Of a DNA stretch of 64,000 bases, positions 3,500-57,045 are shown piece after piece (position 1 is the stretch's first letter; every line of letters starts with the position of its first letter). The translations under genes were made by a program, and so were the position numbers. The notes beneath the pieces were generated by a model that did no database searches, was not told where the DNA came from, and worked only from the letters and a program-made list of their open reading frames with translations. Origin of the DNA: Eledone cirrhosa (lineage: Eukaryota); the NCBI GenBank assembly GCA_964016885.1, contig OZ024741.1:311736001-311800000 (forward strand). Reading direction: 5' to 3'.

Positions 3500-4482
3500 A
3501 ATGTCTTCAGCTATTAATGGAGACTGGTGCAAAAAGAGCCATTTAGCAGATTCCAGCAGATGTAAGGGCGGGTAAATCTCGACGATCTTCGTTTCTGACT
3601 CAGGTCGCTATCAAGACTTATATATATAGTATTAAGGATACTATTTATGGTTATGTATATACTATAACTTTTTATAGTTATATATAGTTTAAACCCTAAA
3701 TAGTGAAAGACAGTAATTTATTACTACCTTATTACCAGTAAGATAAATAGCTCAATGTAATAAGATCAGTTGTTCTACAGAGCAGTTATATAGAATTCAC
3801 AGGAATCAAAGTTATGTTCAAACCGCAACAAGCTATAATAATTTAACTTAATACATCAAACATCCAATACGGAATCATCGTTATTTATGTGAAGGACATA
3901 TAAACTATATATTACGTTTCCTGAATTGTGAAAATGGTGGTGTATACAAAAACCATAACAATATTTTGCTTCTCATTTATACTATTTCTCTGCACACAAG
4001 CTTCTTTATCATACACTAAAAATACCTTACCACTACAACCTCCATAATACTCTTGATTACCCGTTTAAGTGCTTGTATTGCATATAACACCCTGCCGTAC
4101 AATAATCATATATAAATAAGACACACGTGCATGCCCCACGTGTAACTAATGCATACAATAACTACTACAACTACTACAACAAAATATCCTCTTGCATTAT
4201 CTACGTTAACTGCCGATGTTGTATTTTAATTTTAATTTTGCTTTGATTCTGTTTTAATATGTTTTAATTTTTGAATTTAAATTGCCATTCAGAAATAATA
4301 TAATATATGTCACCCCACTGTGTATCAATATATACATATGTATCTGTATGTCTCTTGCGTTGGAAAGGAGGTCATGAATGTATACAGACATTAAATAATG
4401 CTCCGAAGACACCAAGCCTCGGTTTGGATGAAACAATTGTAAGCTAATAAATGGTTTGAACATAACTTTGATTCCTGTGACT
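3500..4482. repeat. Dispersed duplication, paralogous to ~12520-13392
   Basis: Long near-collinear similarity (gtattaaggatactatttatgg... to ...aactttgattc). The 13-kb copy lacks part of 3800-3960. Confidence 0.85.
4400..4444 (+). ncRNA. Minimal type I hammerhead, variant core CCGAAGA
   Basis: GCT-CCGAAGA-[CCAAGC ctcg GTTTGG]-GAAA-CAATTG-TA-AGC. Confidence 0.65.
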
Positions 4483-5326
4483 TCTCTCTCTCTCTCTCTC
4501 TCTCTCTCTCTCTCTCTCTCTCTCTATATATATATATATATATATATATATATATATATATATATATATATATATATATATATATATATATATATATATA
4601 TATATATATATATATATACATATATATATATACATATATTTATATATATATATATATATATATATATATATGTATATATGTAAATATATGTATATATATA
4701 TATATATATATATATATATTTATATATATATATTTATGTATATATGTAAATATATATATATATATATATGTTTATATATATATATATATATATTGGGGCA
4801 CCCACTGATGAATTATAGGAGCCCACTTGAATATATATCTATTGATGGTATACAAGCTCCTACATAAATTGGTATAATTTAACCCAAATTGTAGGAATCC
4901 TATAATGAAAACGAGACGTCCGTCTGGGAAGAGATATGTCTCATATGAAATAATACAGCCAATTTTCCACGCAATACTTTTAGTTAGCACCCCGAACGCA
5001 TAATTGGGAATATAATCACTTATTTCCTAATGTTTGTTGAGTGAGTTTGAATTTGGCCGGAGTATCGCTAAAAAGCTTTCTCCGATATCGTATTTATATA
5101 TATATATATTATATATATATATATATATATATATATATATATATATATATATATATATATATATATATATATATATATATATATATATATATATATATAT
5201 GTAGGAGGTGAGTTTTATTGTAGTACAATAAAGCAATGCAGATATCGGATAAGAAGCACTCTACAGTTTGTAGGACTGGAGTATACATAATATATAAGAA
5301 CAAAAGATGGTTAAAAGAGTTCCATG

Positions 5327-5397
5327 TATTTTATTATGCGCATTTCAAAAAGAAATATCATCATGCAATAATATTTGTGTATTTATCAGATAAAATA
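5327..5397 (-). ncRNA. Hammerhead copy with mutated core (CTGATAA)
   Basis: Reverse complement of 5709-5779 with a G>A change in the core. Confidence 0.6.
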
Positions 5398-5708
5398 GGA
5401 AGACATGATATGAAGGTTAAAAAACACTTGTGAATAGTGCAGTTTTAAATCAACATATGAAAAGTAGTTTTAGATTGACTGGGAAATCTTTTTTTGGGGG
5501 GGGGGGGGGATGAAAAAGAGGAGGAGATGAGTTCCTCATTATACTCCTCCCTCTCCACTTTTTACTCTCATCTCCTCCTCTTTTTCACCCCCCCCCCCTA
5601 AAACATTTTTTTTCCCAATATCACACATCAATCTAAAACTACTTTTCATATGTTGATTTAAAACTGCACTATCCACAAGTGTTTTTTAACCTTCATATCA
5701 TGTCTTCC

Positions 5709-5779
5709 TATTTTATCTGATGAAAACACAAATATTATTGCATGATGATATTTCTTTTTGAAATGCGCATAATAAAATA
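5709..5779 (+). ncRNA. Type I hammerhead ribozyme
   Basis: TATTTTAT-CTGATGA-[long stem II AAATATTATT gcat GATGATATTT]-GAAA-TGCGCA-TA-ATAAAATA. 8-bp stem I, palindromic stem III, AUA triplet. Confidence 0.85.
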
Positions 5780-5837
5780 CATGGAACTCTTTTAACCATC
5801 TTTTGTTCTTATATATTATATATATATATATATATAT

Positions 5838-53664: not shown

Positions 53665-53742
53665 ATCTCGACGAAGGTTTCTTCCTTGTTTAGGACATCC
53701 AAATAATATGGACTGTCCCGAGTCAGGTTATCATCAGGAGAC
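53665..53742 (-). ncRNA. Type I hammerhead ribozyme
   Basis: GTCTC-CTGATGA-[irregular stem II with GGACA..TCCA/TGGA-TGTCC]-GAAA-CcttcG-TC-GAGAT. GUC triplet. Confidence 0.7.
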
Positions 53743-54330
53743 AAACTCAGAAATAGACATTTAATTTCTCTGACAGACCCCGCCAAATTTAGATTAGAAA
53801 ATGGCTAAGATCGCTATGTAGCTGTGTACCAGCCAGAGAGAAAGCGTGTGATTGGTCGCTTACGGCGGGTAGGCATGCTGCTAGAAAGCGCAGCCATATA
53901 TCGCCAAATTTAATCCCAACCGATAGGGAGATTATTAAATATAGAGGTTATCACATACATAAAATTGAATTAAATTAAATCAATAATACATATATGTGTT
54001 GCAACTGTTCACTTTTAAGCTCAATGAAGAATTAATAAGTTAAAATCAAAAAATCAGAGCATTATATCATAAAACGTGTCTATAGAATCAATCAGATATT
54101 AAAATATATACTATTTGAAAGTCAACAGTTGACATAATCTTGTAATCTTGTATCAGTAATGACGGTAATATATATATATAAGTGTGTGTGTGTGCGTGTA
54201 AGTGAGTAGAGTAGCGTGTGTGTGTGTTTGTTTGTATGTATGTGTTGCTGTGTGCGCGCATATGTATGCGTGTGTGTGTATGTCGTACGCATAAGTGTCA
54301 ATAAGTGATTTTTTTTTTTTTTTTTTCTTT

Positions 54331-54612
54331 GCGCGGGGACATAGAAATAATCGGGCTGGATGCCCGATCGCGCAGTTAAACCACTGGGAGTGAAGAACCC
54401 CTAGCCCTTGTCAGGGCATTCTTCTAGGAGAAGGCATCTCAGGAAACTGGGTTAACTCCGATATAAAACCTGCGGCTCAGTAGTTACCGATGATGTTGAT
54501 CTTTTCTTCTTTTCGGGTTATAGCTACTGTCGCTCAGAGAGTGGGATTGGCTCAGTGCACAGTCTTTCCTCACTTTAAAAATATCCGTCACGCACAGGCA
54601 TTGCACGAGTGC
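54331..54612 (+). mobile_element. RTE-derived non-autonomous element, second subfamily
   Basis: Reverse complement of ~14660-14900, with a (TTA)n tract nearby. Confidence 0.55.
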
Positions 54613-54859
54613 ATTAATAATTATTAATAGTGTACTATTATTATTATTATTATTATTATTATTATTATTATTATTACTATTATTATTACTTTTTTTTTTT
54701 TTTTTTTTTTTCAATTCAATGATGTTCCAGAACAATGTAAAAGAGATAATTTGAAATTTAGGTTCTGGAACAAAAAAGATCATTGGCAATAAGGGCAGGG
54801 GCCCCAAGTTATCACAGCATGGGCCAGCTCGTCATCGTGCCATTGTAATAGAGCCAAAC

Positions 54860-56125
54860 AAGGCATTTAGTCTTGGCTGCTGGAACGTACGGACGCTGCT
54901 TGACAGGGATTCCTTGGAGCGTCCTGAACGAAGGACCGCTCTTGTTGCAAAGGAGCTTCGACGTTACGATCTTGACATCGTGGCTTTATCTGAGACGAGG
55001 TTAGCTGAAGATGGTCATCTTACGGAATTTTGTGGAGAATATACATTCTTCTGGAAAGGAAGAGATGAAGAAACCAGAAGAGAGGCTGGGGTAGGATTTG
55101 CTGTTAAGACTGTACTTGTGAATAAATTAGAAGAATTCCCAGTAGGGATTAGTGAGCGTCTTATGTCCATGAAAGTTCCGCTGGACAAAGGAAGATATGC
55201 TACCCTGGTGAGTGTGTATGCTCCAACTATGAATTCTGTCGATGAAGAAAAACTGTCCTTTTACCATGCCTTGAAAGGTGTTCTAAGAAATATCCCTCAG
55301 GCAGACAAAGTCATCGTGCTTGGTGACTTTAATGCTAGAGTGGGTAGGCATTTTAATACATGGAATGTAATCGGAAGGCATGGGGTGGGAAAGTGTAACA
55401 GCAATGGTATGCTCCTGCTTCAGATGTGCGAAGAGCTGGATCTGCGTGTTACCAACACCATGTTCCAACAAAAGAACAAATTCAAGACCACATGGATGCA
55501 TCCTGCATCTAAGGAATGGCATCTTTTGGACTACGTCCTAGTCAGGATGCGTGACAGTCAGGATGTGCAGTGTGTTCGTGTTCTTCGTGGAGCTGAGTGC
55601 TGGACGGACCACCGCCTGGTACGCGCAAAAGTGAAACTAATCACCAAACGTAAAATCCGGGCACCTGGTGTTACCCTGCCCAACAGATTGAATGCTGCTC
55701 GTCTTAAGGATAAAAATGTGAAGAGGACATTGGAAGAAGAGATGCACGCTGCAGATCTTGGTGAGAATTGGCCGACCCTTAAAAAGTCGATTTATGATGT
55801 AGGCAGGCGTGTTCTGGGATTGGTGCAGAGAAAACATCAGGACTGGTTTAATGAGAATGATGTACATATAGAAGACTTGTTGGCTGATAAGAGGCGTGCT
55901 CTGTCACGCTACTTGACGGCAAAACCACAGGAGAGGACTACGTTGCATGAGGAGCTCAGGGATGTAAAATCACGTGTTAGGCGGAGTCTTTCTCAGATGA
56001 AGGATCAGTGGTGGAGTGAGAAGGCTGGTGCGATACAAACTGCGTCTGATTCCAATAACACAAAGCTGTGGTACAGTCTCTTGCGTGAGGTTTATGGACC
56101 GAAAGAATCGCTGCTTTCACCCTGA
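54860..56125 (+). mobile_element. RTE LINE 5' portion: open APE endonuclease ORF, truncated before RT
   Basis: GCWNVRTL, RPERRTALVAKEL, DIVALSETR, VYAPT, LGDFNARVG, LDYVL and TDHRLV. Confidence 0.92.
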
Positions 56126-57045
56126 ACGGGATCTTCTGAAACTAACAAAGTCAATCTGTAAACGCAGAAGTGGATATTTAAAAAAACGTTGCAACCGGAG
56201 GAAGAAGGAAGACGATACTTTGGTTCGTGGAAACGTTCCCTTGCAAAGAACGGGAAAAAACGAGTATATATATACGTCATTAATAGGTGAAAAACAATTA
56301 CGCGCAAAGACAGAACCACGTTTATGGTATAAAAGAGGTCGTAGACTTATGTTCTCTTAGCTGGTTCATAGAGACGTTCTCTGGCAATGAACGCAACAAA
56401 CGAAACGAAGATAATACGTCATATGTGGAGCGTGGACAACAATTGCGCGCAAAGACAAAACCAGGTACGTATTTGTATGCGTGTATGTATTTATTTTAAT
56501 TTCTATTACTTCTGTACGTATTTGTATGCGTGTATGTATTTATTTTAATTTCTATTACTTGTGTATTGTATTTATTTACTTTGTACTTAACTCTGAAGCG
56601 GAGATTGATTCGGTCTCCTAGTTAGAATTTTAGGCTACGATTTCTGCTATACCATTTACCTGGTTTTGCCTTTGCGTGCAATTGTTCTCCACGCTCCACA
56701 TATGACGTATTATCTTCGTTTTTTTCGTTCATTGCCAGAGAACGTCTCTATGAACCACCTAAGGGAACATTAGTCTACGACCTCTTTTATACCATAAACG
56801 TGGTTCTGTCTTTGCGCGTAATTGTTTTTTACCGCTCCTATTAATGTCGTATTATATTCGTTTTTTTCCCGTTCTTTGCCAGGGAACGTTCTACGAACCA
56901 AAGTATCGTCTTCCTGTCTTCCTCCGGTTGCAACGTTTTTTGAAATATCCACTTCTGCGTTTACAGATTGACTTTGTAAGTTTCAGAAGATCACGTTAAG
57001 GGTGAAAGCAGTGATTCTTTGCTTAAACCTTAATCTGTTATTTTA
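56102..57045. repeat. Foldback with ~360-bp arms and terminal HHR-like cores
   Basis: 56102-56465 is the reverse complement of ~56658-57020. Confidence 0.9.

What the first reader, a model, noticed from the sequence alone, without database searches (positions are those of the whole stretch)
3798..57045. All HHR-bearing foldbacks share one polarity: ribozyme-sense strands point outward
Seen: in 5287-5819, 6709-6838, 6970-7498, 7764-11146, 37928-38040 and 56102-57045 the left arm carries the HHR on minus and the right arm on plus. In 3798-4481 and ~37093-37655 a short inverted copy of the 3' terminus caps the far end. Known: PLE insertions often carry an inverted pseudo-LTR at the 5' end. Inference: both ends of each insertion are element 3' ends, which points to two priming events or a template switch as the usual integration route for these small RNAs.
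Basis: partly seen in the sequence, partly recalled or inferred. Interest (0 to 1): 0.75.

Follow-up and report, generated by a model that had tools for sequence, protein, structure and literature searches.

The report
Twin-primed Penelope and retrozyme insertions
These mirror-image repeats are back-to-back 3' ends of Penelope-like jumping genes and of a small ribozyme repeat, a layout already described, but nearly every pair has one short end and one tailed end and many pairs cannot be copies of each other, so they likely form when both cut DNA strands start copying the element's RNA at two fixed points.

Summary
The outward polarity is real: all 8 listed cases; genome-wide 48 outward vs 0 inward for the 470-bp repeat at one spacing; 16:0, 11:4 and 27:0 among the first 100 hits of three families. 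'All' is too strong: the window holds one inward pair (57765-59872), two separate insertions in one (TA)n. The polarity and the one-sided tail are in print (PMC3846280, PMC8557442). Two families are autonomous Hydra-type Penelope-like elements, not small RNAs; one is a non-coding tandem retrozyme. What the counts add: 69 of 71 scored pairs end at two different fixed sites, one with and one without a 58-106-base tail; in 17 of 32 pairs of the autonomous family neither arm contains the other, and in 5 they share no sequence; arms agree at 214 of 219 subfamily sites. This rules against the published fold-back (self-priming) model for those pairs and favours two primings on one template. About half of insertions have the form. 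The scan reached this reading before (36 notes, at least 16 genomes); I did not find it in print.

The parts
3686..4482 (.). Family F insertion: short minus arm 3792-3824 plus about 106-base tail to about 3686 (site 2); long plus arm 3825-4482 (site 1) with decayed hammerhead core at about 4404; followed by (TC)n(TA)n
5201..5819 (.). Family C (Hydra-type element) insertion: minus arm with 93-base tail ending at 5201 (site 2); plus arm ending at 5819 (site 1) with intact type I hammerhead at 5717; (TA)n both sides
6641..6840 (.). Family D insertion: minus arm with 70-base tail (site 2), plus arm (site 1); junction inside the hammerhead core
6923..7640 (.). Family E insertion: minus arm with partial tail (about 20 bases), plus arm (site 1) interrupted by a later 110-base repeat at 7494-7603; hammerhead-like core without a clear stem I
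7764..11150 (.). Family A tandem retrozyme: minus arm of about 2 units ending at site 2 (7764), junction 8756/8757, plus arm of about 5 units ending at site 1 (11150); 468-474-base units, intact type I hammerhead in all 7 units, no ORF of 150 aa or more
36988..37659 (.). Family G insertion: long minus arm with decayed hammerhead at about 37150-37205 and 99-base tail (site 2); short plus arm 37612-37659 (site 1)
37920..38141 (.). Family B (autonomous Hydra-type element) stub: minus arm (site 1), plus arm with 84-88-base tail (site 2); both inner ends at unit position 3101
49369..49493 (+). Family B single arm ending at site 1, no inverted partner seen
56102..57053 (.). Family B insertion: plus arm ends at site 1; minus arm cut at unit position 3139 where it abuts a broken LINE ORF (APE endonuclease, 54755-56101)
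57765..58555 (+). Family A single arm ending at site 2; makes an inward pair with the next insertion across (TA)6
58566..59972 (.). Older family A outward pair: minus arm ending at site 2 (58566), short plus arm from 59873 ending near site 1

Best explanation
Each foldback is one insertion of a Penelope-like element or of a non-coding retrozyme repeat into (TA)n, with two 5'-truncated sense arms joined head to head that end at two different fixed sites, and it was likely made by twin priming: the element's enzyme would nick both target strands and start one cDNA at site 1 and the other at site 2 of the same template RNA, after which the two unfinished cDNAs would be joined. Shown: polarity, two fixed ends, the one-tail rule, non-nested and non-overlapping arms, shared variants between arms. 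Inferred: two nicks, a dimeric enzyme, one RNA molecule, joining by short matches, the pile-up of inner ends as the RNA start, and use of the Penelope enzyme by family A. Ribozyme cutting is likely not needed: family A arms run through several intact hammerheads, and only 1 of 64 family B inner ends lies within 5 bases of the predicted cut.
For: Polarity: 48 vs 0; 16:0, 11:4, 27:0; other families 17 upstream vs 3 downstream partner calls in 96 loci, the 3 being two false calls and one pair of separate insertions (the 17 were not inspected one by one). One-tail rule: A 23 of 23 scored (9 more pairs unscored because an end was lost or lay elsewhere), B 33 of 34 (6 unscored), C 13 of 14 (6 of them without an inspected junction); 69 of 71. 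Geometry in non-tandem family B: tail-less arm reaches further inward in 17 of 32, tailed arm in 6, within 10 bases in 9 (one complex pair and the one same-end pair left out); 5 tailed arms lie wholly in the tail, likewise L155 of family C. Family A: 5 of 22 fit neither containment, even with a one-unit shift. Non-nested pairs include the youngest copies (98% to the reference) while perfect palindromes persist at 77-91%. One source: arms disagree at 5 of 219 diagnostic comparisons vs a median of 45% for shuffled partners, and share variants seen in no other sampled arm; family B shows the same in long overlaps. Raw reads: 7 of 9 listed strand-switch joints share 2-3 letters. PMC11167929: a purified Penelope-like protein nicks and extends both strands, starts at two internal sites bounding the tail, is predicted to be a dimer and does not need ribozyme cutting.
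Against: All mechanism steps rest on genomic footprints. 15 of 32 B pairs and 17 of 22 A pairs are also compatible with fold-back copying. Deletion at a palindrome centre could turn a nested pair into a non-nested one (17 vs 6, p = 0.035 against an even split). Shared variants could come from two RNAs of one source copy or from later gene conversion. PMC11167929 saw no difference in start site between top and bottom strand and did not show paired use of the two sites. Two pairs break the rule (L117 both tail-less; L167/168 both tailed). About half of insertions show no inverted arm. Target duplications cannot be read in (TA)n. Ends were scored by eye from BLAST segments.
Confidence: 0.7

Rival explanations
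1. Fold-back: an antisense RNA self-primes (PMC3846280), or a cDNA started at site 2 snaps back on itself, and the endonuclease resolves the hairpin at site 1; non-nested pairs would be later central deletions.
For: Gives outward polarity, one tail and shared variants by itself; 9 of 32 B pairs are near-perfect palindromes and 6 are nested; proposed in print.
Against: Predicts that the tail-less arm always lies within the tailed arm; the opposite holds in 17 of 32, and 5 pairs share no sequence; these include very young copies, and old perfect palindromes survive undeleted.
Confidence: 0.13
2. Two primings, but on two RNA molecules (one per subunit) from the same source copy, with the two-site rule set by the protein.
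For: Explains long overlaps between arms without strand displacement (e.g. L110, L112); cannot be excluded.
Against: Subfamilies coexist, yet only 5 of 219 diagnostic comparisons disagree and none marks a whole arm; tail-only arms fit one RNA more simply.
Confidence: 0.12
3. Two independent insertions into the same (TA)n, or DNA foldback transposons copied as units.
For: Explains the inward pairs (window 57765/58566, L044, L111, L125). One junction recurs at two unrelated sites (L003, L005).
Against: Outward arms are joined directly with no TA between them, match in subfamily and follow the one-tail rule; junctions differ from copy to copy; L003 and L005 differ in subfamily letters.
Confidence: 0.04
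4. Assembly or amplification chimeras.
For: The exact joint of the youngest case was not confirmed in reads.
Against: Arms differ by 3-12%, one carries a later insertion, ends are asymmetric and fixed; strand-switch joints occur in raw reads of another sample.
Confidence: 0.01

Closest known systems
Insertion unit of endonuclease-bearing Penelope-like elements (Pen2a_Av, PMC3846280; Fig. 2 legend of PMC8557442)
   Same: Inverted 5'-truncated copy at the 5' end, head-to-head polarity, tail at one end only, hammerhead in the pseudo-LTR, (TA)n target.
   Different: Tails here are 58-106 bases, not 30-40; the tail is on exactly one end in 69 of 71 pairs rather than 'optional'; arm geometry contradicts the self-priming model proposed there.
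Hydra clade of Penelope-like elements (PMC8557442, incl. Hydra-1_Obim)
   Same: Family B ORF (712 aa) has RWR, DKT, YRDD, CxCx5C, CxxC and CxH motifs and lines up by eye with the printed Hydra alignment; family C shows the same linker; (TA)n target.
   Different: B is 3.26 kb (Hydra generally under 3 kb) and its hammerhead core has A at position 4; not placed on a tree here.
PAc (Poseidon, Anolis) in vitro mechanism (PMC11167929)
   Same: Two internal start sites bounding the tail; both strands nicked and extended; ribozyme cut not needed.
   Different: That paper does not link the two sites to the two arms of one insertion; ends here share 1-4 letters with the (TA)n target, read by eye.
Animal non-LTR retrozymes (PMC7229834; bioRxiv 10.64898/2026.07.22.740005)
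   Same: Family A: non-coding tandem units, each with a type I hammerhead.
   Different: Inverted arms and two fixed ends were not found in the passages I saw; the link to Penelope-like elements there rests on phylogeny and co-occurrence, here on a shared insertion footprint.
LINE-1 twin priming (recalled, no paper read)
   Same: Two primers on one RNA, inverted 5' part, outward 3' ends, short matches at the joint.
   Different: Here both starts are fixed and 58-106 bases apart, and the arms usually overlap, giving a palindrome.

Membership tests
EN+ Penelope-like insertion unit | Inverted 5'-truncated copy joined at the 5' end (head to head) | tested here: met
EN+ Penelope-like insertion unit | Tail at one end only | tested here: met
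   69 of 71 pairs; lengths 58-106, longer than the published 30-40
EN+ Penelope-like insertion unit | Target-site duplication or AT-rich target | tested here: inconclusive
   (TA)n target seen throughout; duplications unreadable in it
Hydra clade (family B) | Single ORF with RT and C-terminal GIY-YIG endonuclease | tested here: inconclusive
   Motifs seen by eye; Pfam 0 families and PDB 0 hits
Hydra clade (family B) | RWK-like, DKT, CxCX5C, CxxC and CxH motifs | tested here: met
   against the definition (RWR for RWK); family C linker
Hydra clade (family B) | Canonical hammerhead core | tested here: not met
   B core has A at position 4 with stems I-III intact; met in family C
Hydra clade (family B) | Phylogenetic placement | not tested
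   reference proteins seen only in a paper supplement
Non-LTR retrozyme (family A) | Tandem units each with a type I hammerhead | tested here: met
Non-LTR retrozyme (family A) | No coding capacity | tested here: met
   no ORF of 150 aa or more in 7764-11150
Non-LTR retrozyme (family A) | Self-cleavage and circular RNA in cells | not testable with these tools
   no RNA run available
LINE-1-type twin priming (recalled) | Second start at variable internal sites, arms not overlapping | tested here: not met
   both starts fixed; 5 of 32 B pairs non-overlapping
Foldback DNA transposon / MITE | Same termini and same centre copied as a unit to many sites | tested here: not met
   ends unequal, centres differ

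The most novel reading that the evidence does not exclude
A Penelope-like dimer always integrates by paired priming: one subunit starts at each end of the tail on a single RNA, and tandem or circular retrozyme RNAs hijack this complex by carrying their own two start sites, being copied through uncut hammerheads; the one-tail palindrome is the direct footprint of that reaction.
Probability: 0.45. Interest if true: 0.72.

Novelty: new variant of a known kind. Interest (0 to 1): 0.5.

Why it matters
How Penelope-like elements make their inverted ends is stated as open in PMC8557442, and the one model I found in print (self-priming on an antisense template, PMC3846280) makes a prediction that fails here. 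The counts give a sharp in vitro test with an existing assay (PMC11167929). The shared footprint is also direct evidence for which enzyme spreads animal retrozymes.

Tried and rejected
DNA search of the own genome with the family A unit returned nothing because common words are skipped. Rfam: no hammerhead among the rows shown. Pfam and PDB: no hit for the family B ORF; I first took B for a Neptune element and dropped that. Tail folding: no shared or unusually stable structure joining sites 1 and 2 in 7 families (z from -1.6 to +0.2). A-to-G editing between arms: no excess. Exact junction-overlap script was unreliable because copies differ from the single reference; not used. Inner ends of family A show no pile-up at the ribozyme cut or at the tail (read). 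No RNA holder listed. Contigs laid on 6925-7638 did not span the centre; the polarity of the strand-switch joints could not be read from the table. Empty alleles were not obtained. A wide-spacing genome-wide count was not obtained; only the 200-230 spacing was counted whole. Literature: searches 'Penelope-like + twin priming', 'Penelope + twin priming + inverted', searches found no paper stating paired use of the two sites; subscription papers and older reviews are outside the library, and bioRxiv supplements are closed.
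Full report
Observation. A self-comparison of the window with simple repeats masked finds all eight inverted repeats at about the stated places. Reading them shows seven unrelated families, here A-G, with element-sense strands pointing outward in all eight. Only the right arm of 5201-5819 and the seven units of 7764-11150 pass a structure-based hammerhead descriptor that gave no call in shuffled copies of 27 loci; the other arms have mutated, cut or chimeric cores, and family E lacks a visible stem I. 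One further outward pair lies at 58566-59972, and one inward pair at 57765-59872, whose arms meet across (TA)6 and are only 86% alike: two insertions into one TA run.

Polarity in the genome. The window lies in a 3.0-Gb assembly; earlier notes call it an octopus, which I did not test. Exact motif counts: A 10,672, B 28,271, C 14,967. For A at spacing 200-230 the whole genome holds 48 outward and 0 inward pairs (three of the 48 are duplicates of one insertion). Among the first 100 listed hits: A 16:0 within 1 kb, B 11:4 within 3.5 kb, C 27:0 within 5.5 kb. The four inward B pairs are separate insertions, with (TA)n or over 0.8 kb between them. For other families in 96 fetched loci (5 overlapping loci dropped of 101), partners lay upstream in 17 and downstream in 3; the 3 were two false calls and one pair of separate insertions. 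An inverted arm was seen in 28 of 53 family A loci, so the form is common, not universal.

What the elements are. Family B is a 3,256-base unit with a 712-aa ORF bearing the motifs that define the Hydra clade in PMC8557442 (section 11 read; supplement passages); Pfam and PDB give no hit. Family C shows the same cysteine linker upstream, and in family E a reading frame starts right after the tail. Five of the eight cases are thus truncated ends of larger elements rather than small RNAs (B twice, C, E shown; D, F, G not traced to an ORF, so for these it is inference). Family A is non-coding, tandem, with a hammerhead in each unit: a non-LTR retrozyme by structure.

Two fixed ends. Each family has two 3' end points, site 1 and site 2, 58-106 bases apart. 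In scored pairs one arm ends at each: A 23 of 23, B 33 of 34, C 13 of 14; 9 A and 6 B pairs were unscored because an end was lost or lay elsewhere, and none of these was a clear same-end pair. Scoring was by eye from BLAST segments. Independent choice would give half.

Arm geometry. Any fold-back model requires one arm to be contained in the other. In non-tandem family B the tail-less arm reaches further inward in 17 of 32 pairs, so neither arm contains the other; 6 are nested and 9 symmetric; in 5 the tailed arm lies wholly within the tail and shares nothing with its partner. Family A allows a shift by one unit, yet 5 of 22 fit neither way. Later central deletion is the main escape; against it, non-nested pairs include copies 98% like the reference while perfect palindromes persist at 77-91%. 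Inner ends of B pile up at unit positions 3093-3107 (24 of 64), likely the RNA start, and only 1 of 64 lies at the predicted ribozyme cut; family C shows a like pile-up with different joints each time.

One source. In 36 family A pairs the arms disagree at 5 of 219 diagnostic comparisons, against a median of 45% (minimum 28%) for shuffled partners, and several share variants found in no other sampled arm. Long B overlaps agree likewise. This fits one RNA, two RNAs from one copy, or gene conversion. Units within young arrays are identical or nearly so across both arms (L031, L019), as expected from a circular or homogeneous tandem template (inference).

Reality check. Arms differ by 3-12%, one holds a later 110-base insertion that other contigs lack, and raw short reads of another sample show nine listed strand-switch joints in family A, seven sharing 2-3 letters (an amplified library, polarity not readable, the window's own joint skipped).

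Mechanism. Likely: nicks on both strands of (TA)n, one cDNA from each site, joining of the unfinished ends. PMC11167929 (parts 1-2 of 4 read) supplies two-strand nicking and extension, two start sites bounding the tail, a predicted dimer and no need for ribozyme cutting, but not paired use of the sites. PMC3846280 (passages) already reports head-to-head as the most frequent form and proposes self-priming on an antisense template, which the non-nested pairs contradict. PMC8557442 (passages) describes the inverted copy and one-sided tail and leaves the mechanism open. The retrozyme preprint (part 1 of 5 and passages), PMC7229834, PMC2377424 and PMC9977147 (passages) added no model; LINE-1 twin priming is recalled.

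Novelty and score. The headline polarity is known. The strict pairing of end types, the containment test and the extension to a retrozyme were not found in print. The scan's own notes hold the same reading for this and other genomes; I had noted the one-tail idea before looking and tested it here, and those notes are not independent support. Interest 0.5: known layout, but a clean and testable handle on an open mechanism.

Noticed in passing
family B, e.g. window 56982-57030, L024: The hammerhead core has A instead of U at position 4 in most copies read, with stems I-III intact; a natural core variant in a family of over 28,000 copies.
   Followed up: partly
window 8757-11150: A T/G variant and unit length alternate between units 1-4 of the plus arm (T,G,T,G,G): a two-unit duplication or a dimer template.
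   Followed up: partly
L038:1380-6889: One unit of the minus arm and the first unit of the plus arm share several private variants, suggesting a heterogeneous tandem template or gene conversion.
   Followed up: no
L096, L110, L114, L117 (family B): Four arms have an inner end or break within 17 bases of the upstream copy of site 2, as if copying stalled at the second priming complex.
   Followed up: no
L003 and L005: The same family A junction at two unrelated sites in different subfamilies: a recurrent joint.
   Followed up: partly
window 54755-56101: LINE ORF with APE endonuclease broken off where the family B arm begins; the rest was not seen after 57250.
   Followed up: partly
window 62870-63850 (-) and 32904-33491 (-): Further Penelope-like ORF fragments; the first has RT and GIY-YIG Pfam hits, the second resembles the Hydra-type thumb by eye.
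   Followed up: partly
L030:655-850, L114:3015-3225: Another short palindrome family with a one-sided tail between TA runs, without a hammerhead call.
   Followed up: no
L019:6903-8907: A second tandem hammerhead repeat (310-base unit) with the same outward inverted arm.
   Followed up: no
window 11810-14813, 14915-15823, 3188-3244, 52743-52792: Inverted repeats without hammerhead calls; not examined.
   Followed up: no
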